From assembly GCF_024498175.1 (NCBI RefSeq), contig NZ_CP101823.1, positions 2,236,987 to 2,300,986 of the forward strand: 64,000 nucleotides of DNA, read 5' to 3'. The translations under genes and the position numbers were made by a program. The DNA comes from Haloplanus salinarum (GTDB taxonomy: Archaea > Halobacteriota > Halobacteria > Halobacteriales > Haloferacaceae). The notes under the pieces are model-generated. The model had not been told where the DNA came from and did not search any database. It worked only from the letters and a program-made list of their open reading frames with translations. This document shows positions 1 through 14,418 of the stretch, piece by piece. Position 1 is the first letter of the stretch. Each line of letters opens with the position of its first letter.

Positions 1-1
1 C

Positions 2-1465: not shown

Positions 1466-1620
1466 GAGCTTTTGCGATTTTCGTCGGACAGAGGGGACCC
1501 CCCTCCCCCCTGGTATAACCCCATTTGGGGTGTCAGTGTGTCCCCACCCACAGTAATTCTAAATCAAGCGGTAGGGGGAGGGAGGGGGTGGCCCTGTCCG
1601 TCGAGAACTGCAAAAGCCTC
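1466..1620. repeat. Nested inverted repeats: outer gcttttgc/gcaaaagc (1469-1476/1611-1618), inner imperfect ~20-nt G/C-tract pair (1491-1513/1571-1596), central mini-palindromes ccccatttgggg and ggggtgtcagtgtgtcccc
   Basis: read directly from sequence; lies immediately 3' of ORF1 stop (1463-1465) with T-rich run 1469-1490. Confidence 0.45.
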
Positions 1621-1861
1621 TGGGTAGGGTGGCTGAGTTCCAGTAGCGATTAGACCGGAGCGCACCTGCTATCAATACCGATAGGTAAACAGCTAATCAC
1701 AGGATAGAGCAGTAATTTCTGATTAAAGATATTTTATACTTCTTCCCACCCTACCACTAAACACGGGAACCCACAGAGCTACTGCTACCGGATTCGGTCC
1801 GGAGCAGAAACCGGTGCTTGGGACACCGGTCCGTGGGCTTCCCGATGGAGGCGAGAAGCCA

Positions 1862-2095
1862 ATGGAATCAACGAACTCGATAGAGGAATCACTGTCGAAC
1901 AGACACCCCGACGCCGAAACCGTCGGTAACCACCTCGTCATCGACAAGACGCAGTGGTGTCCAGGGCCGCATCCTGACCCCCACCGCCGACGAGAGGGCC
2001 AGACCGAGTACCTGGCGCGGTACCTGCGCTGTATCCAGTGTGGGGCCGAGGTACTGAGCGAAGGAGACCTCCCCGAGGAGTGTGATGCGCGATGA
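1862..2095 (+). CDS. small Cys-containing hypothetical protein (start uncertain; ORF 1814..2095)
   Basis: ORF track; CPGPH...CIQCGAE possible metal-binding; AT-rich promoter-like region 1690-1760 upstream. Confidence 0.25.
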   Translation: MESTNSIEESLSNRHPDAETVGNHLVIDKTQWCPGPHPDPHRRREGQTEYLARYLRCIQCGAEVLSEGDLPEECDAR

Positions 2096-2580
2096 AGTTG
2101 TTGGATGCTCAGGTCGACTGGCGCGAAGATGTCGGCAACGACCCTCGGCTGGAGGTGCTCGTCGACGAGATACCCGACCGGTCCGGCCTCCGGTTCGAGC
2201 ACGAGGATGTTCTCTGGGTCGCCATCGACAACGGATACGTGGAGTATTTCTCCTGGTCTGGTGACGGCAACGATGGTGGCTACAGCGGTCGGTCGTTCGA
2301 GATTACTACCGTCGACGGCGAGCAGGTCACGCTCAAAGGGCCGTGGAGTTCCCGTGCCGGATGCGTGAACAAGCGGAGCTTCGGGCCGGTCGTCGATGTG
2401 CGGATGGCGACCGACCCCGACGTGCTCGAACGGGGCTACACGTTCCGGACGGGTACCCTGACGCTCTCGGCGGTGAAGCAGGCCATCGACCTCACCGACG
2501 AGGATGCTCACCTGGAGCGCGTCATCAAGTTCGATTCGAACGAGCCCTACTGGCGTCCCGTTCGGGGAGGTGACGACTGA
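2092..2580 (+). CDS. hypothetical protein, 162 aa
   Basis: ORF track; ATGA overlap with upstream ORF; part of a co-directional overlapping gene array. Confidence 0.45.
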   Translation: MKLLDAQVDWREDVGNDPRLEVLVDEIPDRSGLRFEHEDVLWVAIDNGYVEYFSWSGDGNDGGYSGRSFEITTVDGEQVTLKGPWSSRAGCVNKRSFGPVVDVRMATDPDVLERGYTFRTGTLTLSAVKQAIDLTDEDAHLERVIKFDSNEPYWRPVRGGDD

Positions 2581-2747
2581 TGGCGACGTGTCGGGAACTC
2601 GGGTGCAACCGCGAGGCGACTCACACAGTCGTCGTCAACGCGCCAGGTCGTGGATACGCCGAAGACCCCTGCTGTACCGAGCACGCCGAGAAGGCACGCG
2701 GTCGGGTCTACGTTCGAGACGTGCGACAGCGAGGAGGTGAGGCCTGA
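2580..2747 (+). CDS. small Cys/His-rich putative zinc-binding protein (55 aa, below ORF-track cutoff)
   Basis: manual translation MATCRELGCNREATH...DPCCTEHAEKARG; TGATG overlap with preceding stop and ATGA-type overlap with next start. Confidence 0.35.
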   Translation: MATCRELGCNREATHTVVVNAPGRGYAEDPCCTEHAEKARGRVYVRDVRQRGGEA

Positions 2748-3121
2748 TGTCGTCGGTCCAACCCGACATCGAGCCACGCACCCTCCGGGCCGCCACCGAG
2801 CATATGACAGTCATCGAGGAAGCGCGGTCCCTGTTCTCTGTCACGACCCAGAGCGGCTCCGAGTACACCGTCGACCTCCGTGAGCCCGCGTGTACGTGCC
2901 CGGACTTCGAGTACCGAGACGGCGTCGAGGAGTGCAAGCACATCCGACGGGTTCGCATCGAGGTGGGCCAAGTCGACACCGATGCGCTCGAAACCCGAAT
3001 CGCGGAGACGGCTGACGACCTCGACGCGAACGCCGCCGACCTCGAACAGCAGGCCAAAGAACTCGCGGAGACCGCCGAGGAACTCCGTGATGCGCTGGAC
3101 CGGCTGGAGGAGGTGGCCTAA
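2747..3121 (+). CDS. SWIM-type zinc finger protein
   Basis: CTCPDFEYRDGVEECKHIRRV matches the CxC...CxH SWIM pattern; ORF track. Confidence 0.5.
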   Translation: MSSVQPDIEPRTLRAATEHMTVIEEARSLFSVTTQSGSEYTVDLREPACTCPDFEYRDGVEECKHIRRVRIEVGQVDTDALETRIAETADDLDANAADLEQQAKELAETAEELRDALDRLEEVA

Positions 3122-3522
3122 TGTCGCGCCAACCCCAGGGTTCGACCGGCGGAAACGCCCGTCTACGACCCTCGAACGAAGGGGAACAGTCGAGGGCCAC
3201 GACGGAACACGTCTACCACGGTCGGCGCGACCCGACTGCGCCGGTCGGTCAAGAGTGTACGGTCACCGTCGACGGCGAGCCGTTGGACCTGCGGTACGAC
3301 CTTCTGTCGGCGAGCCCGGCTGGATTCGAGTGGAGCTACGGTGGGAGCGGTCCCGCCCAACTCGCCATCGCGCTTCTGGCCCACGCCTTTGAGGACGAGT
3401 TCGCCGAGCGCCATTACCAGCGATTCAAGCGTGAGGTGGTATCGGAGCTTCCCGAGGAGAGGTGGATACTCCGGAAGCGGAATCTCGATGCGTGGCGTCG
3501 GGAGGTGGTCAGCGATGCTTGA
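3121..3522 (+). CDS. hypothetical protein, 133 aa
   Basis: ORF track; start ATG overlaps the TAA of the previous gene. Confidence 0.45.
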   Translation: MSRQPQGSTGGNARLRPSNEGEQSRATTEHVYHGRRDPTAPVGQECTVTVDGEPLDLRYDLLSASPAGFEWSYGGSGPAQLAIALLAHAFEDEFAERHYQRFKREVVSELPEERWILRKRNLDAWRREVVSDA

Positions 3523-3676
3523 GCGATACCTCCGACTGATGCGCTGGTGGGTGCGCCGCTGGTACGGCGTTGCTCGCTACCTCGGTCGACTTTCTGGTCA
3601 GGAGGAGTACGTCGAGCGAGCCATCGACGTGACGGAGAAGAACTTCGAGCAGATTCTGGAGGGTGACGACGGATGA
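3515..3676 (+). CDS. small Arg/Trp-rich hypothetical protein, 53 aa
   Basis: in-frame ATG at 3515 within ORF 3341..3676; overlaps previous stop by 8 nt. Confidence 0.3.
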   Translation: MLERYLRLMRWWVRRWYGVARYLGRLSGQEEYVERAIDVTEKNFEQILEGDDG

Positions 3677-3975
3677 CCCGTCCCGACCCTGCGGCGGCGA
3701 TGAACGGAGTCGGTACGGGCCACATCTGCGACCGATGCAACCGCCGGATACAGCACGGCGATAAAGCCGGAATGTATGTGACGTGGTACGACGAGGGGGG
3801 ATGGACCCCCCGTAGGATGTGGTGCCTCGACTGCTGTCCCAAAGAGGTCGACCCCGGTACTGAGGGCGCAGACGAAGCGATACTACTCGGGGTGTTCTTC
3901 GCACATCGGCTGGTGTCGGTAACCGTCAGAGACAGGAGTCTTCCGAATCAGGAAGTAAATAATGAGACGGGTTGA
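3673..3975 (+). CDS. Cys-containing hypothetical protein, 100 aa (CDRCNRR...CLDCC)
   Basis: ORF track; ATGA overlap with upstream gene. Confidence 0.4.
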   Translation: MTRPDPAAAMNGVGTGHICDRCNRRIQHGDKAGMYVTWYDEGGWTPRRMWCLDCCPKEVDPGTEGADEAILLGVFFAHRLVSVTVRDRSLPNQEVNNETG

Positions 3976-4192
3976 AACAGGCGACAGTGTTCGGGTCGAC
4001 ATCCCCGACCAGTCGGACCCGGACTACGAGCGGTTCCACGGGCGGTACGGGGAAGTCGTAGATGTGCTGGAAGACGACGTAGGTCGTGAGACGGGCGACC
4101 AGCGTGATTCGCACCTGTTCACCGTCGAGTTCGAGGATGGAACCACCCACGGCTTTCGGTGGCGAGACCTCCGTCCGGCACCAGAGGAGTAA
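3962..4192 (+). CDS. small acidic hypothetical protein, 76 aa
   Basis: ORF track; overlaps neighbours. Confidence 0.4.
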   Translation: MRRVETGDSVRVDIPDQSDPDYERFHGRYGEVVDVLEDDVGRETGDQRDSHLFTVEFEDGTTHGFRWRDLRPAPEE

Positions 4193-4197
4193 CATCC

Positions 4198-4350
4198 ATG
4201 CCGACAGCCCGGAAAGTCGAGGAGACGTGCCCGCGATGCGACGACGATAGCGACGTGTGGATGTTCGAGAAGCCCGAGGGGTCAGTCACGAAGGAGTGCT
4301 ACACCTGCGAGACGTGCGGGTGCGAGTGGTCTGAAATCATCGACTGCTAA
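4198..4350 (+). CDS. zinc-ribbon protein, ~50 aa
   Basis: CPRCDDD...CYTCETCGC four-Cys ribbon; internal ATG of ORF 4159..4350. Confidence 0.45.
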   Translation: MPTARKVEETCPRCDDDSDVWMFEKPEGSVTKECYTCETCGCEWSEIIDC

Positions 4351-4356
4351 TCTTTC

Positions 4357-4617
4357 TCACTCTCTGTCGAGTGCTTCGAGAAGCAGATTGCCGTTCTCAG
4401 TTAATCGGTAAAAGGTTCGTTGGCGACCTTCAGATTCCCGGTCAGCTACCTCAATCATGCCCTCGCTTTCTAATTCACCCAGCACGTCATAGATGTAGCT
4501 CTGAGTGTAGTTGATGTCGTTCTCTTTGTCGCTGGCAATTGCGTAACCAGTGACCGGCTCATTTTCGCGGATGTAGACGAGGACCTGTACCTTGCGCTCA
4601 TCAACCAGTCCCATCAC
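4357..4617 (-). CDS. winged-helix transcriptional regulator (PadR/ArsR-like)
   Basis: 86 aa; pattern VLVYIRENEPVTGYAIA...YIYDVLGELESEGMIE...RTFYRLTENG typical of wHTH regulators; convergent to the small-gene array. Confidence 0.6.
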   Translation of the reverse strand: MMGLVDERKVQVLVYIRENEPVTGYAIASDKENDINYTQSYIYDVLGELESEGMIEVADRESEGRQRTFYRLTENGNLLLEALDRE

Positions 4618-4851
4618 ACGAGAATACCCGAGGGGTCGAAATAGTCGATATAAGCAAAGTGATAGACCGGTCTAATAGTTAGACTTGTTCAGTAGTTTGA
4701 TATTGTATCCGTCGGATGGACGCCGTATGGAAGTGTGTCTCGTGGAGCAAAAGGACTTGAAACGAGTCCCCGAATCCAAACTGGACACAGAAGCGAACTC
4801 TGAACAGCGAGTTGGACGAACAGTTGGAGCGAAAATCGGGGTTACCCCATA

Positions 4852-5613
4852 ATGTCGGAGGATGGAGGAGTGTCTAATGACGAGTCAGGGGGGCCAGCTA
4901 TCCTGAAAACCATAGGTAAGATTGTATCTTGGGCGTTAGGTTTGTTCCTTCTTCTGTTGAGTCTGGGCGGATTTCAGGATTCAATCCCATTCGGATTCTC
5001 CTTGCTACTATTAGGTCTGTTTCTACTACCCCCGGTACGGAACAGATTCGGAAATCTAATCGACTCCAAGTTTTCCCGTTGGATAGTGAGTGGTATCCTT
5101 ATACTTGGATTTGTTACGATGTTGGTGACTGTCCCGCCGACTGAGGTCAGTGAAAATAATGATGCCTCTGAGGGGATTGAGACATCCTCACCTGGCACTT
5201 CCGCACGATGTTGGATTGTAAATCACCGGAGCGAGATTTCTGAAGCAAGTGAGCAACTGAATCAGGGTACTAATGCTCTGGAAGAGGGAGACGGGTCGAG
5301 GGCACTCATGCACTTAGAGAAGTCGTTCAATCAATATGAGACCCTGAATGAATCGGCACATGAGGCCCCTATTAGAAACGATACACGGGAACAACTGCTT
5401 GAAGGGTACTTTCATGCGGCATTTCAGGGTACAGCCGCTACGTATTCCGGTGTTTATGAGTTGCAAGTAAACGATGATGCTGATGCTGCAAACAGGATGG
5501 CTGAGCGACAAGAACGCCACTTCGAGACGGCGGCGCAGAGGCGGGAAGAGCTCAAGGAAAGCCTCGGGGTGAGTCCTTCGACAGATTTGACTGAAATTAG
5601 TGGGAATTGTTGA
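4852..5613 (+). CDS. membrane protein, N-terminal TM helices plus soluble domain; low GC
   Basis: ORF track; hydrophobic segments in first 90 aa; visibly lower GC than flanks. Confidence 0.5.
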   Translation: MSEDGGVSNDESGGPAILKTIGKIVSWALGLFLLLLSLGGFQDSIPFGFSLLLLGLFLLPPVRNRFGNLIDSKFSRWIVSGILILGFVTMLVTVPPTEVSENNDASEGIETSSPGTSARCWIVNHRSEISEASEQLNQGTNALEEGDGSRALMHLEKSFNQYETLNESAHEAPIRNDTREQLLEGYFHAAFQGTAATYSGVYELQVNDDADAANRMAERQERHFETAAQRREELKESLGVSPSTDLTEISGNC

Positions 5614-5701
5614 GTGGTTAAAAATACAAACTGGAGAGGACGGAGACGGGTGTGTCCATCATCTATTTGTAACTTCCCCAGCGGCATATAAGATACTTCG
5701 A

Positions 5702-8700
5702 ATGAGTCAGGCTACGCTCTCCGACCGACCCTACGTCAACGCGAATCTCTTCTCTGGTCACTACCTGGACGAGCGCGTACAAGAACGCGACGAGTGGGAC
5801 TGTGACGATGACGCCCGCGAAGCGATGGATGACCTCCGGACGCTCTATGAGTTGGAGGGCTCGCTGGTCGAGGGGTACGGCGAGGACGCGCTCATAGATA
5901 ACTGGATAGACGAGGTACTGGACGTACTCGGGTTTGGAACGCAAGAGGAAGTGACGCTCCCCAACGGCGGCGGCTTCGTCGACGAACTCCTCTTCGAGAC
6001 GCCGACCGCTCGCCGGGACGCCGCCGAGGTCTACCTCGGAACCGAAGATACGACCGACCTGTTCGAGCGGGGCGTCGGCATCGTCGAGGCCAAGCAGTGG
6101 GACGCCGCGTTCAACATCCAGTTCAGCGAGCAACGTCCCTACCGCAACGCCTCGCACCAGACCAAGCACTACCTGGAGAACACGCCGCCGAACATCCAGT
6201 GGGGCGTACTCACAAACGGACGGAAGTGGCGGCTCTACGGTACGAACGACTACGAGACGCAGACCTACTACGAGGTCGACCTCCCCGAACTACTCGAACG
6301 GGGCGACCTGGGGGCGTTCAAATACTTCTACGTCTTCTTCCGGCCCGACGCCTTCCACGAGTCCGGCGGCACGACGTTCCTCGACGAAGTGTGGTCCGAG
6401 AGCGAGACGGCGTCACAGGAACTCGGGGAGAACCTGCAAGATAACGTCTTCACCGCACTGCGCGTGCTCGGGCGCGGCTTCGTCGAGACCAACGACGACC
6501 TCGACATCGACCCCGACGACGAGGAGGCCTTGGACGAACTGAAAGAGCAATCGCTCGTCTTCCTCTATCGGCTGATGTTCGTCCTCTACGCTGAGGCACG
6601 CGGACTCATCCACCCGGAAGGTCAGTCGGCGCAGGACGAGTACGACCAGAACTTCAGCCTCGACGAACTCCGGCTGGACATCCACGACACCATCGGCGAG
6701 GTCGACGAGGGCTTCGAAGACGAGTTCAGCGACTACTCGACGACGATGTGGAGTCGGCTGGAGGACCTGTTCCGGCTCATCGACCAGGGCGAGGAAGACC
6801 TCGGCATCCCCCCGTACAACGGTGGCCTGTTCGACCACGAGGAACACGACTTCCTGACCGACCACGAGGTGAGCAACCAGTACCTCGCCGAGGTCATCTA
6901 CCGACTGTCGACCACGCAGAACGACGAGGGTCGGTACGTCCTCGCCGATTACGCCGACCTCGACACCCGCCACCTTGGGAGCGTCTACGAGGGCCTACTC
7001 GAACACCAGTTCCGCATCGCGCCCGAGCAGTACGCGGCGGTCGCGGAGGACGGTGGCCAGGTCTGGAAGCCCGCCACCGAAGTCAGCGTTGCCGACGCCG
7101 TCGAGACCGTCCCCGAGGGCGGGCTGTACGTCGTCAACGATGAGGGCGAACGCAAGGCCACGGGTGCCTACTACACGCCCGACTACGTGGTGACCTACAT
7201 CGTCGAGGAGACGGTCGGCCCGCTGGTCGAGGAGATACGTGAAGACCTGATAGACCAAGGGTTCGAGCCGGGCACACAGGAGTACATCGGGCCGTTCTTT
7301 CGGCGTGTGACCGACCTTCGGATTCTCGACCCTGCGATGGGGAGCGGTCACTTCCTGACAAAGGCTACTGGCTACCTGTCCGAGCAAGTGATGGCCGAGG
7401 TCCGCGAGGCTGAAGAGGAGTTCGGGGTGGCGTTCGACGAACAGCACATCCGGCGGGAAATCGCCAAAGAGTGCATCTACGGCGTCGACCTGAACGGGAT
7501 GGCCGTCGAACTGGCGAAGCTGTCGATGTGGCTGGAGACGCTGGCGGCCGACCGTCCGCTCGCCTTCCTCGACCACCACTTCAAGCAGGGTAATTCGCTG
7601 GTCGGGTCGGACATTGAGGATATCGAGGAACTGGAATCAGACGCGAGCAACGACGCTGATTCACAGGCGTCCTTGGCCGAGTTCGGCGCGACACGTGAGG
7701 GAACTATCGAGCGCCTGATGGACATTTACTCGGAGTTCCTCGCCATCGAGAACGAGACGGTCGAGGACGTGCGCGAGATGAAGCGCAAGTACGCCGAAAT
7801 CGAGCAGGACGAACTCCGTAAACGGCTCGTGACGATGGCGAACGTTCACACCGCCGAGCGATTCGGTCTTGATGTTCCCGGTGGTGCATACGAGCGAATG
7901 GCAAAGGCGCTGGAAGATGATGAGGAATGGGCGGGCGTTAAAAACACAGATTGGTTCGAAAGCGCACAGGCAACAGCTGGTGAGCAAGATTTCTTCCACT
8001 GGAAACTGGCCTTCCCCGAAGCCTACTATGATGAAGAGGGGTCATTGAGAAACGATGACGGATTTGACGCGGTAGTCGGAAACCCGCCGTATGTTAAGAT
8101 ACAAAACTTACCAGACACCGATAAAGAATATTACGGAAATGTCTATAATGTAGCCCGGGAACGCTATGACCTTTACAATTTATTCGTTGAAAGAGCGGAG
8201 GCCCTTTCTAATAATCGCGTTGGGTTGATTTTACCAAATAAATTCTTTGAGGCACGCGCGGGTTCGCCGCTCAGGCAACATCTTGAGGACATACAGAGTG
8301 TTGAAAAGATAGCTGATTTTAAACAAAACCAGGTGTTTGATGGGGCAACCACCTATACGTGTCTCCTGTTCTTATCGCAGTCTCATCAATCAACAATAAT
8401 TGACTATGGTGCAGTTTCAGACGACCCAGAAACCAATCTCACAGAAGTTGAGTGGGTAGAGATAGACTTGGATAATGAAGGAGAAAAGTGGAATTTAACT
8501 GGAGAAGAAGAAAAGAAGATACTCAACAAGATTGAAAGTACAGGAATTGGATTTGACGAAATCACCGACCAGATTCTGGTAGGGGTTCAGACCAGTGCTA
8601 ACGATGTTTTCGTCTTGGAAGAGTGTGAGTATGATGGTGATTATGTTGAAGGGTATTCATCAGCAGTAGGTGAGCGTGTCTCCGTTGAGACCAGTATTAC

Positions 8701-9868
8701 GAAACCGTTTGTAACGGATAGTGGGGTTTCTCGCTACACTCCACCGGAAACCGATTCTTGTCTCATCTATCCGTATCTTGATGATGGTACGATAATGCCA
8801 GAGAATGAGCTTGAGAATAGGTATCCCGAATGTTTTGACTACCTCTTGGACAACAAGGAGGACCTCAGCGAACGTGGTAGCGAGAATCAGGTATTCGAGA
8901 CGTGGTACGCTCATTGGTGTCCAAGACATCCTGCAAAGTTTGAACGGCTGAAAATAATGATTTCTCAGGTCGTCAAACAAGGGGAATCGACTTATGATTC
9001 GCAGGGGGATGTCTTCTTTTCCAGTACAGTCTATAGTCCAATCCTTGCGGAGACGTATAGGGATGTTGAGCTTGGATTATTAGGATTATTGAACTCTTCG
9101 CTCGTCTGGTACTATATCACTCAAACAGGAACTGTGCTACGAGGAGGTTACTACCGATACAAAACAGAATACTTAGAACCGGTTGGTATACCAGTTGACA
9201 GTTTTGACAGTAGTATCGAACAACATGTAGAGAATCTAATGGAATATACTGGTGAGCGTGTGAGAATAAACATGAATCTCACTGATTATCTTGGCAACTA
9301 CTCTGACGGACCGGACCTCACAACCGTTGGAAGATATAATCCGCCAGAGGGTGTGGGAGATTCGACGTTAGACGCTACTAACGAGGACTACGAAAATCTT
9401 CGTATCGGTGAAGTCGTCTGCGAAAGGAAGAATGAGACTACCGTCGTCATCCACGCTACGGCGCGCTACAAGCCCGACGACGAGGCCACCCACGAGACCG
9501 ACCAGTGGGGCTACACAGAGACCGAGCCGATGCCAGCAATACGACTGACTGACCTCTCAGAGACCGAGGCCGACCTCGTGGAGGCGTTCGTGCCGGTCGC
9601 CGTCGAGGAGGCCGGTGGGTTCGCAGGATTCCGTGAGACGGCGACGAAGACGAACTCGCTGGTCGACCGACTGGAGGCCATCACGCTCCCCGACCCCGAC
9701 GGCGTGGCCGACGACCTCGAACGGTACCGGGACGCCGTCGAGCGAGCGGAGGAACTCGACAAGAAAATTCAGCGTACCGATGACCTGATTGATGAAATCG
9801 TCTACGACCTCTACGGGCTGACTGACGAGGAAATCGAAATCGTCGAGGAAGCCATCGCGGATGACTGA
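5702..9868 (+). CDS. Type IIL (MmeI-family) restriction-modification enzyme: N-terminal PD-ExK nuclease, gamma-class N6-adenine methyltransferase, C-terminal specificity region
   Basis: FVDELLFE...GIVEAKQ (D..ExK as in MmeI), QWGVLTNGRKWRLY, PYNGGLFDHEEH, GAYYTPDYVV, DPAMGSGHFL (SAM motif I), VVGNPPYV (motif IV); start reset to ATG 5702 (MSQATLSDRPYVNANLF); TATA-like catataag ~15 nt upstream. Confidence 0.8.
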   Translation: MSQATLSDRPYVNANLFSGHYLDERVQERDEWDCDDDAREAMDDLRTLYELEGSLVEGYGEDALIDNWIDEVLDVLGFGTQEEVTLPNGGGFVDELLFETPTARRDAAEVYLGTEDTTDLFERGVGIVEAKQWDAAFNIQFSEQRPYRNASHQTKHYLENTPPNIQWGVLTNGRKWRLYGTNDYETQTYYEVDLPELLERGDLGAFKYFYVFFRPDAFHESGGTTFLDEVWSESETASQELGENLQDNVFTALRVLGRGFVETNDDLDIDPDDEEALDELKEQSLVFLYRLMFVLYAEARGLIHPEGQSAQDEYDQNFSLDELRLDIHDTIGEVDEGFEDEFSDYSTTMWSRLEDLFRLIDQGEEDLGIPPYNGGLFDHEEHDFLTDHEVSNQYLAEVIYRLSTTQNDEGRYVLADYADLDTRHLGSVYEGLLEHQFRIAPEQYAAVAEDGGQVWKPATEVSVADAVETVPEGGLYVVNDEGERKATGAYYTPDYVVTYIVEETVGPLVEEIREDLIDQGFEPGTQEYIGPFFRRVTDLRILDPAMGSGHFLTKATGYLSEQVMAEVREAEEEFGVAFDEQHIRREIAKECIYGVDLNGMAVELAKLSMWLETLAADRPLAFLDHHFKQGNSLVGSDIEDIEELESDASNDADSQASLAEFGATREGTIERLMDIYSEFLAIENETVEDVREMKRKYAEIEQDELRKRLVTMANVHTAERFGLDVPGGAYERMAKALEDDEEWAGVKNTDWFESAQATAGEQDFFHWKLAFPEAYYDEEGSLRNDDGFDAVVGNPPYVKIQNLPDTDKEYYGNVYNVARERYDLYNLFVERAEALSNNRVGLILPNKFFEARAGSPLRQHLEDIQSVEKIADFKQNQVFDGATTYTCLLFLSQSHQSTIIDYGAVSDDPETNLTEVEWVEIDLDNEGEKWNLTGEEEKKILNKIESTGIGFDEITDQILVGVQTSANDVFVLEECEYDGDYVEGYSSAVGERVSVETSITKPFVTDSGVSRYTPPETDSCLIYPYLDDGTIMPENELENRYPECFDYLLDNKEDLSERGSENQVFETWYAHWCPRHPAKFERLKIMISQVVKQGESTYDSQGDVFFSSTVYSPILAETYRDVELGLLGLLNSSLVWYYITQTGTVLRGGYYRYKTEYLEPVGIPVDSFDSSIEQHVENLMEYTGERVRINMNLTDYLGNYSDGPDLTTVGRYNPPEGVGDSTLDATNEDYENLRIGEVVCERKNETTVVIHATARYKPDDEATHETDQWGYTETEPMPAIRLTDLSETEADLVEAFVPVAVEEAGGFAGFRETATKTNSLVDRLEAITLPDPDGVADDLERYRDAVERAEELDKKIQRTDDLIDEIVYDLYGLTDEEIEIVEEAIADD

Positions 9869-10571
9869 GAGCCGACTCGACGAGTTCAACCCTGTCGCCG
9901 AGCGCGTTCGCCAACAGCTTCGCACGTTCCCGCTCAAGTTCAGGGAGTTGGGCGAGGGCGGAAAGCTCAGTCTCATTCTCACCGACGACGAGACCACGGC
10001 CCTCCCTGGACCCTACGTCGGCCAGCAACCGGAGGTATTCACCGAACAGTATCTGATTGAGCCGGTTCTGCACGGCTTGGGGTACACCAATCCTGCATCG
10101 ACCGAGTACGACGGGACCGGTCCGCATTTCGTTCGCAGACCGACGACGTTCCGACACGTCGAAAGCAAACGTCCGGATTATTTGCTGAAACAGGTCGACC
10201 CCACGCTGGTCTGTATCCTCGAAGCCAAGGCCGCGAACAAGGAGCAGAAGACGAGGCGAGCGGCGACCAGCGACATCCGCGAGTATATCGAAGTGAACGC
10301 CTTCTGCAAGTACCTTCGAGAGATGGCGCACGAGCAGATGGTAGCCATCGGCACAGATGGACTCCGGTGGACCCTGTGGCGGTCACACCTACACGAGGAC
10401 ACGCAGGGGCAAGTCTGTCGGGTCGACCTTACGGAGGTGCTTCGAGCCATATCGAGACGGCACGACGTAATCGAGGGACAGACGGACTGGAGTGCAAACG
10501 ATGTACGGAATCGAATCGAGGAGTTCGTCGACCACTTCGCGGCGGCTCGGCTTCCGGGTGTGATTGAGTAG
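9861..10571 (+). CDS. HSDR_N-like (type I R-subunit N-terminal) PD-(D/E)xK domain protein
   Basis: RPDYLLKQVDPTLVCILEAKAANKE matches the pDyvL...viEaK core; ATGA... start overlaps the stop of the RM gene (translational coupling). Confidence 0.5.
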   Translation: MTESRLDEFNPVAERVRQQLRTFPLKFRELGEGGKLSLILTDDETTALPGPYVGQQPEVFTEQYLIEPVLHGLGYTNPASTEYDGTGPHFVRRPTTFRHVESKRPDYLLKQVDPTLVCILEAKAANKEQKTRRAATSDIREYIEVNAFCKYLREMAHEQMVAIGTDGLRWTLWRSHLHEDTQGQVCRVDLTEVLRAISRRHDVIEGQTDWSANDVRNRIEEFVDHFAAARLPGVIE

Positions 10572-10630
10572 CGGCTGAACCGACCGCGCCGAGGATGGGC
10601 TGGCTACGGTGACAGCCTACGCTGTGAACC

Positions 10631-10695
10631 GTGTGTATGTACGTACGTGTGTTGGCGGTACGGAGTCGAGTATTTTGTTGTTTCTGAGAGGACTC
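10631..10695 (+). repeat. copy 1 of a ~60-nt intergenic element (gtgtgtatgtacg...ttggcggtacggagtcgagtattttgttgtttctgagaggactc)
   Basis: about 37/44 identity to copy at 13463-13519 in the same orientation; both ~100-140 nt upstream of + strand start codons. Confidence 0.5.
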
Positions 10696-10831
10696 TGCTA
10701 TCAACCCCGTCTGCTCGTTGTCCGGTGGTTGTCCGAATTGAAGAGTGGTACACGAGCAATAATCCTCTGGCCCCGTTAGCTTAGACTTGAGACTAAGTAC
10801 AGGATAAGTTTTAACACCCTGTGGATAGATA

Positions 10832-11299
10832 GTGGTAGATATGGCGCGAAGCATCAAGCTGGCCGACGAACTGTACCAAGAGCTCGGTCGCTACGGTAAC
10901 CGAGATGAATCGTGGAATGACGTGGTCGCTCGTGTGCTCGCTCACGTCAACGAGGAGGCGGCGCTTGAGGACCGAGACACCCGTGAAACGACGCATAGGG
11001 GAAAGTCGGAGAGTTCCGGAAAATCGGGCCTTGAGAAGTTACCGGATGGGACGGTCGTTCGCCATTCGTATTCCCGTGGCGATTACGGTGGACAGTCAGT
11101 CGAGGCGACCGTTGTGGGTGACCAACTTTCGGTCGAGGGGGATACCCAGGAAACACGAAGTCCAACTGGTGCCGCCAGGGTGGCTGATAAAAAGTTGCGT
11201 GGCGACGACGCACGGGGCGAAGGCTACAACGGCTGGACCTGGTGGACGTATCAGAACGAAAGAGGCGAATGGCGGCCAATTCAGGAGCTTTCGGAGTGA
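10832..11299 (+). CDS. RHH (ribbon-helix-helix) domain fused to a conserved Trp-rich C-terminal domain
   Basis: N-terminus RSIKLADELYQELGRYGN...WNDVVARVL fits the RHH beta-strand/helix pattern; C-terminus GWTWWTYQNERGEWRPIQEL paralogous to the next gene. Confidence 0.5.
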   Translation: MVDMARSIKLADELYQELGRYGNRDESWNDVVARVLAHVNEEAALEDRDTRETTHRGKSESSGKSGLEKLPDGTVVRHSYSRGDYGGQSVEATVVGDQLSVEGDTQETRSPTGAARVADKKLRGDDARGEGYNGWTWWTYQNERGEWRPIQELSE

Positions 11300-11304
11300 T
11301 ACCG

Positions 11305-11643
11305 ATGAAAGAAAAAATGCCGCCACATCTCAATTCGAAGCTCGCACAGTTAGACAACGGTACGACTCTCCGTCACGTTTACAGGCGTGGGGAGTACCGA
11401 GACGAGGAGGTGACCGCCCACGTCAAAGATGAGCGGATTAGCGTACCGGGTGATTCTGGCCCTGACGATTCAGAATTAACGACGCGAACCCCATCCGGTG
11501 CCGCCCGCGAGGCTGACCGATTCCACAGGGGAGCCGACCCTCGGGACGACCCCTACGGCTACAGCGGTTGGGACTGGTGGGAATACAAAAACGAAGACGA
11601 CGAATGGGTACCTATCAGAGAACTTCCCGACTGGAAGTCGTAG
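11305..11643 (+). CDS. paralog of the C-terminal Trp-rich domain of the preceding gene (no RHH)
   Basis: YRRGEY...SPTGAAREAD...GWDWWEYKNEDDEWVPIREL aligns with the upstream protein; start taken at MKEKMPP (internal ATG of ORF 11242..11643). Confidence 0.5.
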   Translation: MKEKMPPHLNSKLAQLDNGTTLRHVYRRGEYRDEEVTAHVKDERISVPGDSGPDDSELTTRTPSGAAREADRFHRGADPRDDPYGYSGWDWWEYKNEDDEWVPIRELPDWKS

Positions 11644-11878
11644 TGCGAAGTGAACGGCTGTAACTGCTTTCCCGTCATGGCTCGATAGAAGTCTCGAATC
11701 GACAGTAATCACCAACTCCGACGTATTAGATTCCTATACGTGATGGTTGGCGATTCTACTTTGGAAGACGCGTTATTGGGTACTACAATAACGGCTGTTC
11801 GAAAATAGACGTAGTCTATCAATTGGACAGCTACTACGTGGGGGAAACGACTAATCCGTATGCTTCCGGAGTACTGAT

Positions 11879-12592
11879 ATGACCAGACGCCAGGACCTCG
11901 ACCGATTCTACTCTCTGCTCGACGACCTGGAGGCGACAGTCGGTGGCAAGAGACGGCTTGGAAACTGTGACGGTCGAATGAACTGGCCCGACCGCGGCAT
12001 TTACTTCTTCTTTCACCCAGACGAAACCCGCGAGTCCAGTGACCAGCTACGAGTAACTCGTATCGGTACCCATGCGGTCTCGGAAGGAAGCAGTACGTCG
12101 CTCTGGGACCGGCTACGAACGCATCGAGGGGCACAACGCGGTACCTACGAAGGCGGCGGCAACCACCGCGGCTCCGTCTTCAGGAAGCGCGTCGGGGAGG
12201 CCCTCATCGAGAAGGATAGCCTCGAAGAGCAGTATCCTGAGTGGGGCGTCGGCTCAAGTGCTGGACGGGAGTTGCGGTTAGATGAACTGGAGATGGAGCG
12301 ACGGGTGAGCGAGTACGTCCGCGATTTACCGTATCTCTGGGTCGACATCGACGACGAACCGAGTCCGAACAGCGACCGCGCCTACATCGAGCGAAACGCG
12401 ATTGCGCTGGTGAGCAACTACGGCAAGGAATCTATCGACTCCCGCCGCGAGGAATGGCTCGGGCACTACAGTCCGGTCACGGACATCGAGCAGTCCGGTC
12501 TGTGGAACATCAACCATGTCGGGGAAGATTACCAACCCGACTTCTTGGAGACCTTGGAGGGCTACACCGACCGGATGCCGGGATTTGATTAA
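11879..12592 (+). CDS. hypothetical protein, possible GIY-YIG-like nuclease fold
   Basis: GIYFFFHPDE...LRVTRIGTH...R...H...E spacing resembles GIY-(10-15)-YIG-R-H-E; weak assignment. Confidence 0.4.
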   Translation: MTRRQDLDRFYSLLDDLEATVGGKRRLGNCDGRMNWPDRGIYFFFHPDETRESSDQLRVTRIGTHAVSEGSSTSLWDRLRTHRGAQRGTYEGGGNHRGSVFRKRVGEALIEKDSLEEQYPEWGVGSSAGRELRLDELEMERRVSEYVRDLPYLWVDIDDEPSPNSDRAYIERNAIALVSNYGKESIDSRREEWLGHYSPVTDIEQSGLWNINHVGEDYQPDFLETLEGYTDRMPGFD

Positions 12593-13014
12593 ATCCGTTC
12601 GTTGTACCACGCCAGCGTCTTCCCATACTGAAGCCCGTCGGTCGGCGTCTCGACCTGTACCGGCGTCTCTTCGAGGAGCGGGAGTAGCTCATCGTAATAG
12701 TCGCGGCCAGCGTGGAAGACCAGCGTGTTACCCGAGGTGAGTAGCCCTTCCTCTCGTAGCTGGTCGTAGACCGTTTGGGTCCACTCGCGTTTCCTGTCGA
12801 CGGACGCCCCGCTCAGCGTCTCGTCGTAAGGTTCGATAGGTGGGCCATCTGGGTCGAGCAGGTGGTGCTTTGCGGAGAGGATGTACCACGCATCGTGATT
12901 CGCCTCGACGTACTCGCGGGCCTTCCTGAAGAACGCGGACTCCATGTAGAGGTCGGCGGGCTTCGCGGCCTGCTCACGCTTGCTCTTGGTACAGCTTACA
13001 AGCCCAATCTCCAT
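12589..13014 (-). CDS. conserved hypothetical protein (MEIGLVSCTKSKR...DAWYILSAKHHLL family)
   Basis: ORF track; convergent and 4-nt overlapping with the previous gene. Confidence 0.5.
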   Translation of the reverse strand: MEIGLVSCTKSKREQAAKPADLYMESAFFRKAREYVEANHDAWYILSAKHHLLDPDGPPIEPYDETLSGASVDRKREWTQTVYDQLREEGLLTSGNTLVFHAGRDYYDELLPLLEETPVQVETPTDGLQYGKTLAWYNERI

Positions 13015-13027
13015 GACAAATGGACTC

Positions 13028-13408
13028 CTAGTCTTCCTCCGGTTCTGCGTGGGCTCTTGCCGCCTGACTCGGAGACAGTTTTGCTACAGCAACGTCCCCT
13101 TCTTTTTCAATGATATTTCCACCCACTTTTTCAGCCTCGTCGACATCAATAAAGTAGATGTCGCCCTCACCTTCATGCTTAACCGTTATTTCTGTTGAGG
13201 GGTCTTCTTCTTTTACTACTGAATATGCTGTAAGCGCAAGACCCGCAGTCCCAACGACTGCACTATAGATTGCTATCGCAGTTCCTACACCAAGCTCTTC
13301 GCCGCTACGTTCCTCCAGGTCAATATGCAGCTCATCCTCTACCCGGTCAATAATATACTCTTGCTCCTCTTCCACTTTCAATTCAATCTCATAATCTCTA
13401 TTTTCCAT
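13028..13408 (-). CDS. small acidic protein with one hydrophobic helix; low GC
   Basis: ORF track; AIAIYSAVVGTAGLALTAYSVV hydrophobic segment. Confidence 0.4.
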   Translation of the reverse strand: MENRDYEIELKVEEEQEYIIDRVEDELHIDLEERSGEELGVGTAIAIYSAVVGTAGLALTAYSVVKEEDPSTEITVKHEGEGDIYFIDVDEAEKVGGNIIEKEGDVAVAKLSPSQAARAHAEPEED

Positions 13409-13462
13409 AGTGACATGTTTAACAAGACTATTTTAAAAAGAACCGGGGCGGCTCCTGAGTGT

Positions 13463-13519
13463 GTATCTACGGGTCTTGGCGGTACGAAGTTGAGTATTCT
13501 ATTGCTTCTGGGAGGACTT
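13463..13519 (+). repeat. copy 2 of the ~60-nt intergenic element
   Basis: gtgtgtatctacgggtcttggcggtacgaagttgagtattctattgcttctgggaggactt; see copy 1. Confidence 0.5.
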
Positions 13520-13608
13520 CGTTCTCAGCAACTGAGTACGAGTCGGAAAATTGTTGCACCGGAATCCTATAGTCCAACAGTCACCAATAGATATCCAGGC
13601 TATCACAC

Positions 13609-14388
13609 ATGACAACCTCTAACCAGGCTATAGAAGAAGAGCTTGACAGGTTAGAAGAGGATGCCGAGGAAATTGAAACTCTTTATACCGATTTTTTCAA
13701 TAATATCCAAACAAGGGCAAGTGAAATAGGCGGTGGTGGATACTATTGGAATACCCCTTCGGAAGAATTGGAGCAGATTCAGCGTGAGGCACTGCAAAAA
13801 TACGAAGTGTGGTACAATACTGCGCTTCCGCTTGTTACAGATTACATTCCGAGCCGAAGGGATGATTTCGAACACCACTATCAAGAGTTCAAAAACCGCC
13901 TACGGTTAGATAAAAAGGCCCGAAGAGATACGCGCAAGGTTCTGAACGCTCAAAACAGTGATTTTGATTCCCAACGAAGTCTACTCCGTTCTATACCCTC
14001 GAAAATTCGTGTAGAGGAACTCAGAGTTCGAAAGCAAATCTCTCGTGATGTTTCGCAGACAGAACATGACAAGGCAAGAGACCTTTATGAGGAGGGTGAG
14101 ATTCGGGCCAGTGGGGTGATTGCCGGTGTTGCTCTGGAAAGATATCTCCTCATGCGTTGCGAAAACGCCGGAGTTGATATTGATTACAATTATGACGATG
14201 GTATTGATGCACTTGCGCAGAAATTATACGAAGGAAATGAAATCAACAAGAGTCCATACCAACATTTGAAACACCTTTCATCAATTCGTGCAGACTGTGC
14301 CCATGCAAATGAGGAAGACCCGGCTGAAAAGGATGTAAAGCGTCTATTGGAGGATACAGAGGACTACATCCGAGGGAGAAGGATATAA
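13609..14388 (+). CDS. hypothetical coiled-coil protein, low GC, Lys/Glu-rich
   Basis: ORF track; strongly AT-biased codon usage relative to the window. Confidence 0.45.
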   Translation: MTTSNQAIEEELDRLEEDAEEIETLYTDFFNNIQTRASEIGGGGYYWNTPSEELEQIQREALQKYEVWYNTALPLVTDYIPSRRDDFEHHYQEFKNRLRLDKKARRDTRKVLNAQNSDFDSQRSLLRSIPSKIRVEELRVRKQISRDVSQTEHDKARDLYEEGEIRASGVIAGVALERYLLMRCENAGVDIDYNYDDGIDALAQKLYEGNEINKSPYQHLKHLSSIRADCAHANEEDPAEKDVKRLLEDTEDYIRGRRI

Positions 14389-14418
14389 TTCACCGATAGC
14401 ATCAATCGAAACTCACTG

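What the first reader, a model, noticed from the sequence alone, without database searches (positions are those of the whole stretch)
8050..9450. AT-rich segment inside the RM gene coincides with the predicted target-recognition region
The stretch encoding roughly residues 780-1250 drops to ~40% GC by eye (many aat/aaa/tta/ata codons), against >60% in the N-terminal nuclease/MTase part of the same ORF. In MmeI-family enzymes the specificity determinant is C-terminal, so this looks like a TRD acquired by recombination from a low-GC donor, i.e. a specificity swap.
Basis: seen in the sequence. Interest (0 to 1): 0.5.

Follow-up and report, generated by a model that had tools for sequence, protein, structure and literature searches.

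The report
AT-rich swappable specificity cassette in RM gene
A haloarchaeal restriction-modification gene carries an AT-rich middle module, the DNA-recognition part, that has been exchanged between alleles by recombination; this is a known way of changing specificity, and the AT-richness is a standing feature of that module across the whole gene family, not the mark of one low-GC donor.

Summary
Inside the 1388-aa type IIG RM gene (5702-9868, +), third-codon-position GC falls from 0.83 to 0.43 between nt 7859 and 9412 (LLR 122, against at most 9.8 in shuffles). Codon adaptation falls from 0.67/0.62 to 0.26.

The block is wider than a TRD. It starts about 75 codons before the NPPY motif, covers the second half of the methyltransferase fold plus a TaqI/CamA-like recognition domain, and stops 150 codons before the stop codon.

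The swap reading is supported:
- Relatives 88-97% identical upstream and 80-89% identical downstream are only 17-43% identical in the TRD core of the block.
- The closest cassettes (62% and 51%) sit in backbones only 41-42% identical.
- Another pair of alleles shows the reverse: the same cassette in two different backbones.

The "low-GC donor" reading is not supported:
- The same GC3 step occurs in 62 of 66 family loci, from haloarchaea to Methanothrix and Chloroflexi.
- It is a property of the block, not of how conserved each site is.
- The cassette protein is halophile-acidic.
- Its silent sites do not drift towards backbone GC.

The enzyme is not an MmeI-family member. Verdict: an ordinary TRD-cassette exchange in a new family. 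Why the cassette stays AT-rich is unresolved.

The parts
5702..9868 (+). Intact type IIG restriction-modification gene (1388 aa; ATG at 5702, and homologues start at the same MSQATL)
   Evidence: ORF list and translation. Pfam Eco57I 122 bits, MmeI_Mtase 38.5, TaqI_C 27.8. PADLOC REase_MTase_IIG E 1e-71. The exact protein is on record in GCA_048595615.1 CP184342.1.
5702..7858 (+). Conserved, host-like backbone A: N-terminal PD-ExK nuclease (aa 92-198; D94 nt 5981-5983, E129 nt 6086-6088, K131 nt 6092-6094), helical spacer, and the AdoMet-binding half of the methyltransferase (DPAMGSG nt 7328-7348)
   Evidence: GC3 0.84, CAI 0.67. D94, E129 and K131 are invariant in 20 homologues. Sub-threshold MmeI_N, MmeI_hel and HSDR_N hits. 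88-97% aa and 0.82-0.93 nt identity to many alleles.
7859..9412 (+). AT-rich variable cassette (aa 720-1237): methyltransferase motifs IV-VIII plus the target-recognition domain. This is the exchanged module.
   Evidence: GC3 0.43, CAI 0.26, changepoint LLR 122. Alleles with a near-identical backbone are 17-43% aa identical over aa 881-1237 and about 0.4 nt identical across aa 800-1200. Only P0001/L082 shares the cassette, at 82-86%.
8081..8092 (+). NPPY catalytic motif IV (aa 794-797), lying inside the cassette. In most family members the GC3 step falls at this point.
   Evidence: Motif position. Family changepoints map to aa 770-810. Family mean GC3 runs 0.74 -> 0.49 -> 0.43 across aa 751-811.
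8063..9199 (+). Region homologous to the motif IV-to-TRD part of the gamma-class adenine methyltransferases CamA and M.BseCI. It includes the Pfam TaqI_C match (aa 1079-1160, nt 8936-9181).
   Evidence: phmmer against PDB: aa 788-1163 match CamA residues 159-531, E 9e-18. Foldseek top hits are CamA, BseCI, PglX and TaqI. TaqI_C 27.8-29.8 bits against a cut-off of 26.5.
7844..8100 (+). Left junction zone. The protein is still conserved (FFHW...GNPPY) but the DNA ancestry has already switched.
   Evidence: GC3 changepoint support 7844-7868. Nt identity to backbone relatives falls from 0.75-0.88 to 0.62-0.81 and then to about 0.4. Protein identity falls from 0.89 to 0.19 across aa 721-820.
9300..9445 (+). 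Right junction zone
   Evidence: GC3 changepoint support 9403-9445. Nt identity to backbone relatives returns from 0.4-0.6 to 0.8-0.9 at aa 1201-1281.
9413..9868 (+). Conserved, GC-rich C-terminal tail (aa 1238-1388), predicted as beta-hairpins plus long helices, with no Pfam family. It serves as the 3' homology anchor for cassette exchange.
   Evidence: GC3 0.79, CAI 0.62. 80-89% identity in alleles that carry unrelated cassettes. No Pfam hit at E<=1. Model pLDDT mostly 85-97.

Best explanation
The ORF is an intact haloarchaeal type IIG restriction-modification enzyme built from three modules. The first is a conserved N-terminal module: PD-ExK nuclease, helical spacer and the AdoMet-binding half of a gamma-class N6-adenine methyltransferase. 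The second is a hypervariable middle cassette holding methyltransferase motifs IV-VIII and a TaqI/CamA-like target-recognition domain. The third is a conserved 150-aa C-terminal tail. The two conserved modules act as homology arms. Homologous recombination between alleles of this very abundant gene family replaces the whole middle cassette. Because one recognition domain serves both activities in a type IIG enzyme, this changes the sequence that is both methylated and cut in a single step. The cassette in this window (nt 7859-9412) arrived that way. Its nearest relatives sit in very different backbones, and near-identical backbones carry unrelated cassettes. The event is not recent, since silent sites differ by about 0.3-0.4 from the only relative that shares the cassette. 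The AT-richness is not a fingerprint of a particular low-GC donor. It is a standing, block-wide property of the cassette pool throughout the family, like the other variable, AT-rich cargo genes of the same mobile island. Shown: the compositional step, the mosaic ancestry, cassette transfer between backbones in the family, the family-wide GC3 step, and the domain content. Inferred: homologous recombination as the mechanism, the change of specificity, and the enzymatic activity. The cause of the persistent AT-richness is unresolved. My leading idea is that a segment with no homologous partner escapes GC-biased gene conversion or homogenisation and sits near the AT-biased mutational equilibrium. 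Steady turnover from an AT-rich accessory pool is about equally likely.
For: Compositional step. Domain content. Mosaic ancestry of this gene: 14 or more alleles are 88-97% identical in aa 1-719 and 80-89% in aa 1238-1388 but 17-43% in aa 881-1237. The identity breakpoints coincide with the GC3 changepoints. Nt identity is 0.82-0.93 in the flanks against about 0.4 in the cassette. The next-closest cassettes (62%, 51%) lie in backbones 41-42% identical. Family-wide shuffling: across 6441 pairs the identity correlation A~B is -0.16, and 478 of 565 pairs with A>=88% have B<35%. In the reciprocal pair L088/L089 the cassette is 0.85-0.95 nt identical while the backbones are 0.68-0.80. Some cross-phylum pairs have B>A. 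Standing AT-richness: GC3(A)-GC3(B) is above 0 in 62 of 66 loci, Wilcoxon 6.5e-12. Changepoints map to aa 770-810 and 1160-1250 in most loci, including Methanothrix, Chloroflexi and Balneolaceae. It is a block effect, not a site effect: non-conserved columns in A have GC3 0.80 and conserved columns in B have 0.46. The cassette has pI 4.2, D+E 0.19 and K+R 0.075, halophile-like, whereas TRDs of the non-halophile homologues sampled (one of them from a saline Balneolaceae bin) have pI 5.4-8.3. Silent S<->W differences are symmetric in cassettes (36:48 and 34:41) but strongly skewed in backbones (115:54 and 22:137). In the island, the low-GC3 ORFs are the ones with no counterpart in a syntenic element.
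Against: No relative was found with a near-identical backbone at the DNA level (silent-site identity is only 0.5-0.9), so the actual recombination event cannot be dated or its parents named. The single relative sharing the cassette (P0001) also has a similar backbone, so for this exact cassette the evidence for movement is phylogenetic incongruence at 50-62% identity, not a caught-in-the-act transfer. Recognition sequence and enzymatic activity are untested. Two-sequence comparisons cannot polarise silent changes, so slow amelioration from an even more AT-rich ancestor (GC4 about 0.2-0.33) is not strictly excluded.
Confidence: 0.8

Rival explanations
1. One reading: a one-off, fairly recent acquisition of the TRD from a foreign low-GC organism. 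On this view the GC dip is the un-ameliorated signature of that donor.
For: GC3 of 0.43 and CAI of 0.26 are far from the host values of 0.85 and 0.69. The ancestry of the block differs from that of the flanks. Low-GC halophile lineages do carry family members, for example L019 (flank GC 0.43), L024 (0.40) and the low-GC allele L008.
Against: The same step occurs in 62 of 66 loci, including hosts of 36-45% GC where the cassette is even lower than the host. In high-GC haloarchaeal loci cassette GC3 mostly clusters between 0.42 and 0.57 and does not spread between donor and host values. Across all loci with A>=0.75 the median is 0.52 and the 90th percentile 0.73. The cassette protein is halophile-acidic. 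Its nearest relatives are haloarchaeal alleles of the same family. It differs at 28-39% of silent sites from its only close relative, yet both copies are still at 0.39-0.45.
Confidence: 0.1
2. No exchange took place. The middle of the gene simply diverged in place under diversifying selection, and relaxed codon selection let silent sites decay towards AT.
For: TRDs are classic targets of diversifying selection. The cassette is the least conserved part of the protein.
Against: GC3 depends on the block, not on how conserved each site is. The same cassette occurs in different backbones with higher nt identity than the backbones themselves. Cassette and backbone similarities are uncorrelated. This cassette's relatives lie in backbones 41-42% identical. 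Identity changes in sharp steps at fixed positions.
Confidence: 0.05
3. Cause of the composition, version A: the cassette is AT-rich because divergent cassettes never pair with a homologous partner. They therefore escape GC-biased gene conversion and homogenisation, which keep the frequently recombining backbones GC-rich, and they sit near the AT-biased mutational equilibrium.
For: The effect is block-wise and its edges coincide with the edges of homology. B is below A in hosts of all GC contents. B tracks flank GC with a slope of about 1 but an offset of about -0.2. Silent changes are symmetric in cassettes and skewed in backbones. Backbones are 85-93% nt identical across genera, which implies frequent exchange. 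A link between recombination and GC3 in prokaryotes is described in PMC4450053.
Against: GC-biased conversion has not been demonstrated in haloarchaea. In polyploid haloarchaea, conversion between genome copies should act on cassettes as well. No polarised substitution data were obtained here.
Confidence: 0.3
4. Cause of the composition, version B: cassettes turn over quickly from a shared AT-rich accessory pool carried on mobile elements and low-GC halophiles. They are replaced before they can ameliorate.
For: The cassette behaves like the other unique, AT-rich cargo ORFs of the same island, which have GC3 0.39-0.47 and no counterpart in the syntenic element L084. Copies of the family occur on plasmids and next to integrases. 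Cassettes cross backbone clades and even phyla.
Against: This cassette has been resident through about 0.3-0.4 silent differences without gaining GC. Cassette GC3 rises with host GC, so there is no single universal pool. No AT-rich reservoir genome was found carrying this cassette.
Confidence: 0.3

Closest known systems
Allelic substitution or movement of target-recognition domains in type IIG and type I RM genes (Campylobacter jejuni, Streptococcus thermophilus, Helicobacter pylori; PMC2853133, PMC3077401, PMC3983042)
   Same: Conserved flanks, a non-homologous recognition segment between close alleles, and specificity change by recombination in place of point mutation.
   Different: This case is in Halobacteria, in an Eco57I/TaqI_C-type enzyme. 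The exchanged unit also carries methyltransferase motifs IV-VIII. A conserved 150-aa tail forms the 3' arm. The cassette is marked by a sharp, family-wide GC3 step that I did not find described in those papers.
MmeI family (type IIL) RM enzymes (PMC4833311, PMC2731914)
   Same: A single polypeptide in the order nuclease, helical spacer, gamma-class methyltransferase, TRD, C-terminal domain. One TRD serves both cleavage and methylation. The MmeI_Mtase Pfam model is passed (38.5 bits against 27).
   Different: MmeI_N and MmeI_hel fall below threshold, and MmeI_TRD and MmeI_C give no hit. MmeI is not among the top 50 structural matches. The TRD is of the TaqI/CamA type.
Gamma-class N6-adenine methyltransferases CamA, M.BseCI and M.TaqI (PDB 7lni, 7qw5, 1g38)
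   Same: The cassette region aa 788-1166 aligns by sequence (E 1e-17) and by fold (Foldseek E 5e-24; TM normalised to the target 0.6) to their motif IV-to-TRD part.
   Different: Those are stand-alone methyltransferases with no nuclease, spacer or C-terminal tail. Identity is only 18-22%, so no specificity can be inferred.
Type I HsdS TRD reassortment (review PMC3874165)
   Same: Variable TRDs bounded by conserved regions that serve as crossover sites, and new specificities produced by reassortment.
   Different: There is one TRD here, not two, and it is fused to the catalytic polypeptide. Part of the catalytic fold travels with it.
BREX PglX / DISARM DrmMI methyltransferases
   Same: Partial profile and fold similarity in the methyltransferase core.
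   Different: NCBIfam scores are far below the cut-offs (101 against 500). None of the six neighbouring ORFs scanned matches a BREX or DISARM component. An N-terminal PD-ExK nuclease is present.

Membership tests
Type IIG RM enzyme (fused REase-MTase) | N6-adenine methyltransferase motifs I and IV in the same polypeptide as a nuclease | tested here: met
   DPAMGSG at aa 543 and NPPY at aa 794. Eco57I 122 bits and N6_Mtase 48 bits. PADLOC REase_MTase_IIG E 1e-71 to 1e-47, with one profile spanning aa 11-802.
Type IIG RM enzyme (fused REase-MTase) | PD-(D/E)XK nuclease domain with catalytic residues | tested here: inconclusive
   D94, E129 and K131 are invariant in 20 homologues. MmeI_N at 22-24 bits and HSDR_N at 20-21 bits are both below their gathering thresholds. 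The N-terminal 479 aa were not modelled.
Type IIG RM enzyme (fused REase-MTase) | Site-specific cleavage and methylation activity | not testable with these tools
   Needs a methylome or biochemistry.
MmeI family (type IIL) | MmeI_N, MmeI_hel, MmeI_TRD and MmeI_C domains at or above Pfam thresholds | tested here: not met
   MmeI_N 22.3-23.8 and MmeI_hel 18.5-23.0 against a threshold of 27. No MmeI_TRD or MmeI_C hit even at E<=1.
MmeI family (type IIL) | MmeI-type methyltransferase domain | tested here: met
   MmeI_Mtase 38.5 bits against 27, but over aa 532-617 only.
MmeI family (type IIL) | MmeI-like fold of the MTase-TRD-C region | tested here: not met
   The top 50 Foldseek PDB hits are CamA, M.BseCI, PglX/BrxX and M.TaqI. 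MmeI is not among them.
TaqI-like C-terminal specificity domain (PF12950) | Profile match above the gathering score, and a TaqI/CamA-like fold | tested here: met
   27.8-29.8 bits against 26.5, which is marginal. The fold and sequence matches to CamA, BseCI and TaqI cover the TRD.
TRD cassette exchange between alleles | Close alleles share flanks but have a non-homologous recognition segment | tested here: met
TRD cassette exchange between alleles | The same cassette found in different backbones | tested here: met
   Shown in the family: L088/L089 have cassette nt identity 0.85-0.95 against backbone 0.68-0.80. For this window's cassette the evidence is at 62% and 51% aa, in backbones 41-42% identical.
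BREX PglX | NCBIfam BREX MTaseX score above the cut-off, and BREX neighbours | tested here: not met
   100.8 bits against a cut-off of 500. The neighbours lack PglZ, BrxC and BrxL.
DISARM DrmMI | DrmMI together with drmA, drmB and drmC neighbours | tested here: not met
   The DrmMI profile hits aa 470-852 only (325 bits). None of the scanned neighbours matches a DISARM component.

The most novel reading that the evidence does not exclude
The hypervariable cassette has its own compositional equilibrium at silent sites, about 0.4 GC3 inside genes and genomes that are at 0.85. This would arise because a segment with no homologous partner is shielded from the GC-raising process that acts on its recombining flanks: GC-biased gene conversion or homogenisation. 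If so, this very large family, with a sharp intragenic step at fixed positions across archaeal and bacterial phyla, is a natural within-gene experiment for measuring biased conversion against mutation bias in prokaryotes. The GC3 step would also be a general marker of exchange-module boundaries in RM genes.
Probability: 0.3. Interest if true: 0.6.

Novelty: new member of a known kind. Interest (0 to 1): 0.35.

Why it matters
The finding documents, at sequence level, how the most abundant type IIG family of Halobacteria diversifies its specificity. The exchangeable unit runs from just before NPPY to about 150 aa before the C-terminus. These are practical boundaries for engineering specificity swaps and for annotating alleles. 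It also corrects a common inference: an intragenic low-GC block in a high-GC host is not by itself evidence of a low-GC donor. Here it is a family-wide property of the variable module. If the persistence of AT-richness proves to be a true equilibrium, the family offers a clean internal control, with flanks and cassette in the same gene, for studying what maintains high GC in prokaryotes.

Tried and rejected
- A TRD-only search of the 5.8-billion protein set returned only short haloarchaeal fragments at 66% identity or less. It did not even re-list P0001, so it could not identify a donor.
- The viral contig scan gave only distant relatives (33% or less), so there is no evidence that viruses carry the haloarchaeal clade.
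- The plasmid tblastn gave haloarchaeal plasmid alleles at 39.5% or less in the cassette, so there is no donor there.
- The repeat search found no direct or inverted repeats at the cassette borders. This argues against site-specific inversion or shufflon mechanisms and against silent cassette arrays.
- Rfam and tRNA scans were empty.
- The site-level explanation, that relaxed selection at variable residues lowers GC3, was rejected. GC3 is 0.80 at non-conserved columns of the backbone and 0.46 at conserved columns of the cassette.
- The amino-acid-composition explanation was rejected. The effect is largest at third positions and GC2 is unchanged.
- A two-sequence test of amelioration is suggestive but not decisive, because changes cannot be polarised and backbone and cassette may have different histories.
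- Literature searches found TRD allelic diversity and general low GC of RM genes. They found no description of a block-wise GC3 step at the TRD module. That search was limited to open-access text.

Full report
**Observation**

The window carries one long ORF on the + strand, 5600/5702-9868. Homologues begin at the ATG at 5702 (MSQATL), which gives a 1388-aa, strongly acidic protein.

In 300-nt windows GC is 0.58-0.67 over 5850-7950. It drops to 0.41-0.46 from about 7950 to 9449 and returns to 0.58-0.68. The drop is concentrated at third codon positions:

| Segment | GC1 | GC2 | GC3 | CAI |
|---|---|---|---|---|
| 5702-7858 | 0.68 | 0.35 | 0.84 | 0.67 |
| 7859-9412 | 0.55 | 0.36 | 0.43 | 0.26 |
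| 9413-9868 | 0.70 | 0.38 | 0.79 | 0.62 |

(GC values; CAI.)

A two-changepoint likelihood fit on GC3 puts the block at aa 720-1237, which is nt 7859-9412. Support intervals are 7844-7868 and 9403-9445. LLR is 122, against at most 9.8 in 100 codon shuffles. The CAI reference is a set of 21 long ORFs from the rest of the window, which score 0.69 +/- 0.11 with GC3 0.85 +/- 0.10.

**What the gene is**

- Pfam gives Eco57I (aa 590-879, 122 bits), N6_Mtase, MmeI_Mtase (aa 532-617, 38.5 bits) and TaqI_C (aa 1079-1160, 27.8 bits).
- MmeI_N, MmeI_hel and HSDR_N fall below their thresholds. MmeI_TRD and MmeI_C give no hit even at E<=1.
- Motif I (DPAMGSG) is at aa 543 and motif IV (NPPY) at aa 794.
- D94, E129 and K131, a PD-ExK signature, are invariant in 20 homologues.
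- PADLOC type IIG profiles match at E 1e-71 to 1e-47.
- BREX PglX models score far below their cut-offs. No BREX or DISARM partner genes are nearby.
- By sequence, aa 788-1166 align to residues 159-531 of CamA and to M.BseCI.
- An AlphaFold model of aa 480-1388 (pLDDT 85.5, pTM 0.71) finds CamA, M.BseCI, PglX/BrxX and M.TaqI as best folds. MmeI is not in the top 50.

The enzyme is thus a type IIG RM protein with an Eco57I-type gamma-class methyltransferase and a TaqI/CamA-like recognition domain. It has the MmeI-like domain order but fails the MmeI-family membership test.

The AT-rich block is not only the TRD. It starts about 75 codons before NPPY, contains methyltransferase motifs IV-VIII and the recognition domain, and ends 150 codons before the stop. 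The last 150 aa are conserved, GC-rich and match no Pfam family.

**Is the block of different ancestry?**

Yes.

The family is very large in Halobacteria, with 1420 hits at E<1e-10 among the scored candidates. Segment-wise identities to the query show many alleles that are 88-97% identical in aa 1-719 and 80-89% in aa 1238-1388, but 36-66% in aa 720-880 and 17-43% in aa 881-1237. Only P0001 shares the cassette, at 82-86%.

Mean identity to 14 backbone-close alleles falls from 0.89 (aa 721-740) to 0.19 (aa 801-820). It climbs back from 0.36 to 0.75-0.95 over aa 1181-1300. These steps coincide with the GC3 changepoints.

At the DNA level, codon-aligned nucleotide identity to six such alleles is 0.82-0.93 in the flanks and about 0.4 in the cassette, which is what unrelated sequence gives (loci).

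A metagenome scan with the cassette alone found its next relatives at 62% (L102) and 51% (L103, L104). These sit in backbones only 41-42% identical in aa 1-480. The two parts of the gene therefore have clearly different phylogenetic affinities, although all relatives are haloarchaeal-type alleles of the same family.

**Family-wide shuffling**

Among 114 full-length proteins (6441 pairs), identity in the backbone and in the cassette is uncorrelated (Spearman -0.16). Of 565 pairs with at least 88% backbone identity, 478 have under 35% cassette identity. Some pairs have a cassette more similar than the backbone, and this also occurs across phyla in the genome loci.

For one such pair I fetched DNA. 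Between L088 and L089 the cassette (aa 801-1250) is 0.85-0.95 identical at nucleotide level, with 0.75-0.88 identity at silent third positions. The backbones are 0.68-0.80 and 0.4-0.65. The switches fall at NPPY and at about aa 1250. This is a direct case of one cassette sitting in two backbones, with the same module boundaries as in the window.

No repeats flank the cassette in the window. General homologous recombination in the conserved arms is therefore the likely mechanism, and site-specific inversion is unlikely. This step is inferred.

**Is the low GC the signature of a low-GC donor?**

The evidence says no.

1. For 66 true homologues with DNA, GC3 of the backbone exceeds GC3 of the cassette in 62 (mean difference 0.19, Wilcoxon 6.5e-12). 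The difference is at least 0.2 in 28 of them. Examples (A/B/C):
   - Halobellus salinus: 0.94/0.43/0.90
   - Halovenus salina: 0.87/0.46/0.90
   - Natronomonas sp.: 0.81/0.42/0.84
   - Methanothrix: 0.82/0.46/0.88
   - Anaerolineae: 0.81/0.49/0.73
   - Chloroflexota: 0.77/0.48/0.81
   - Low-GC hosts, where the cassette is lower still: 0.37/0.27 and 0.34/0.25
2. Independent changepoint fits in each locus map the step to query aa 770-810 and 1160-1250 in most loci. About 40 of 72 have LLR above 40.
3. In 16 high-GC haloarchaeal alleles, GC3 is 0.80 even at non-conserved backbone columns and 0.46 even at conserved cassette columns. The effect therefore belongs to the block, not to site-level constraint.
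4. The cassette protein is as acidic as the rest of the enzyme (D+E 0.19, K+R 0.075, pI 4.2). Cassettes of the non-halophile homologues sampled (one from a saline Balneolaceae bin) have pI 5.4-8.3. The module has therefore long lived in salt-in halophiles.
5. Against its only close relative (L082) the cassette differs at 39% of four-fold sites, yet both copies are at GC4 0.39-0.45.
6. In both cassette-sharing pairs, silent strong/weak differences are symmetric in the cassette (36:48 and 34:41). They are heavily skewed in the backbones (115:54 and 22:137; Fisher 1.4e-4 and 4e-7).

The cassette does not follow the GC of its flanks. These two-sequence tests cannot polarise changes, so slow amelioration from an even more AT-rich ancestor is not strictly excluded. 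Even so, cassette GC3 in the high-GC haloarchaeal loci mostly lies between 0.42 and 0.57. Across all loci with A>=0.75 the median is 0.52 and the 90th percentile 0.73. This points to a steady state.

**Context**

The exact protein is on record in GCA_048595615.1 (CP184342.1, a 3.45-Mb chromosome). The first 15 kb of the window are lower in GC than the rest and look like a mobile defence island.

A metagenomic contig (L084) shares homologues at 73-86% identity of two small ORFs, plus the DUF6166, DUF8139, PadR, RM, GIY-YIG (PADLOC PDC-M57B) and DUF6884 genes. The window's low-GC3 ORFs (4852-5613, 13028-13408, 13609-14388; GC3 0.39-0.47) and ORF 10841-11299 (GC3 0.62) have no counterpart in any of about 100 fetched loci.

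The RM cassette thus behaves like an accessory gene inside a gene: the conserved element backbone is GC-rich and the variable cargo is AT-rich.

**Mechanism and open point**

The best-supported account is modular cassette exchange by homologous recombination. The crossovers lie in the conserved arms:
- left arm, about nt 7844-8100, ending in the GNPPY block;
- right arm, about nt 9300-9445, continuing into the conserved tail.

One exchange re-targets both methylation and cleavage, because type IIG enzymes use a single recognition domain for both. That last point rests on established knowledge of the class (PMC2731914, PMC4833311), not on a test made here.

Why the cassette pool stays AT-rich is unresolved. 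Two explanations fit about equally well:
- Escape from GC-biased conversion or homogenisation, which acts on the frequently recombining arms (compare PMC4450053).
- Continuous turnover from an AT-rich accessory pool.

Selection for rare codons seems less likely, because it would not be confined to one module.

**Comparison with what is known**

Allelic replacement of TRDs in type IIG and type I genes is well described (PMC2853133, PMC3077401, PMC3983042, PMC3874165). Halobacteria are known to be rich in type IIG genes (PMC10609329). This is a new family-level example of that known process.

Four details may be new:
- the exchange unit includes half of the catalytic fold;
- a conserved C-terminal tail serves as the 3' arm;
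- a sharp GC3 step occurs at fixed positions in most of the family, across phyla;
- the cassettes show apparent compositional stasis.

I found no description of the GC3 step in the open-access literature searched. That search was limited.

**Verdict**

Novelty: a new member of a known kind. Interest 0.35, with a 0.3 chance that the compositional stasis reflects a real region-specific equilibrium that would merit more attention.

Noticed in passing
window 4852-5613 (+): A 253-aa ORF lies 89 nt upstream of the RM gene. It has GC3 0.47 and CAI 0.25, the same composition as the cassette. It has no Pfam, NCBIfam or PADLOC family and no homologue in any of about 100 related loci. In other loci the equivalent position holds different small genes (174, 189 and 176 aa in L084, L087 and L088).
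   Followed up: partly
window 9861-10571 (+): A 236-aa ORF overlaps the RM stop codon by 8 nt, so it may be translationally coupled. It matches no family. The same arrangement is conserved directly downstream of the RM gene in L014 (82% identity) and L027 (51%), but is absent from most loci.
   Followed up: partly
window 11879-12592 (+) and 12589-13014 (-): A GIY-YIG_3 protein matches the PADLOC candidate defence family PDC-M57B at E 6e-77. Next to it, convergent, is a DUF6884 gene. The pair recurs downstream of the RM gene in L084 (82% and 79% identity) and L086, so it is a possible conserved partner module of the island.
   Followed up: partly
window 10632-10703 and 13456-13527: A 72-nt direct repeat (78% identity) lies in two intergenic regions, each upstream of an island ORF (10841-11299 and 13609-14388). 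It may be a shared promoter or regulatory element, or the scar of a mobile insertion.
   Followed up: no
window 13028-13408 (-) and 13609-14388 (+): Two more ORFs have GC3 of 0.39-0.40 and CAI of 0.25 (the latter measured for 13609-14388). Neither has a family or a homologue in the related loci. Together with 4852-5613 they show that the unique cargo of this island is AT-rich while its conserved genes are at GC3 0.7-0.8.
   Followed up: partly
window 1-15000; L081 1-10000: The first 15 kb of the window (GC 0.45-0.64, against 0.65-0.77 for most of the rest) look like an integrated mobile defence island. It holds small ORFs, DUF6166, DUF8139 and PadR, and further upstream in the chromosome a HamA-like nuclease and an HATPase_c_3 protein. 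No tRNA was found in the window. No integrase family is recorded among the called genes around the RM gene, and the ends of the island were not determined.
   Followed up: partly
L084 9516-12718 (-): In the syntenic metagenomic element a second Eco57I-type methyltransferase (633 aa) and a 433-aa partner are inserted between the type IIG gene and the GIY-YIG gene. This shows that the slot is a hotspot for RM cargo.
   Followed up: no
L008 (Halovalidus salilacus), L016, L018, L028, L029: Some alleles are AT-rich over the whole gene (L008: 0.48/0.33/0.41 in a host of flank GC 0.61). Others are AT-rich from NPPY to the stop codon, with a C tail at 0.41-0.45. The right-hand module boundary therefore varies, and low-GC whole-gene lineages coexist with the mosaic ones.
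   Followed up: no
L034, L037, L039 (Methanothrix), L045, L080 (Chloroflexi): In hosts whose flanks are only 41-54% GC, the conserved modules still have GC3 of about 0.8 and the cassette 0.46-0.49. Here the backbone, not the cassette, looks compositionally foreign.
   Followed up: no
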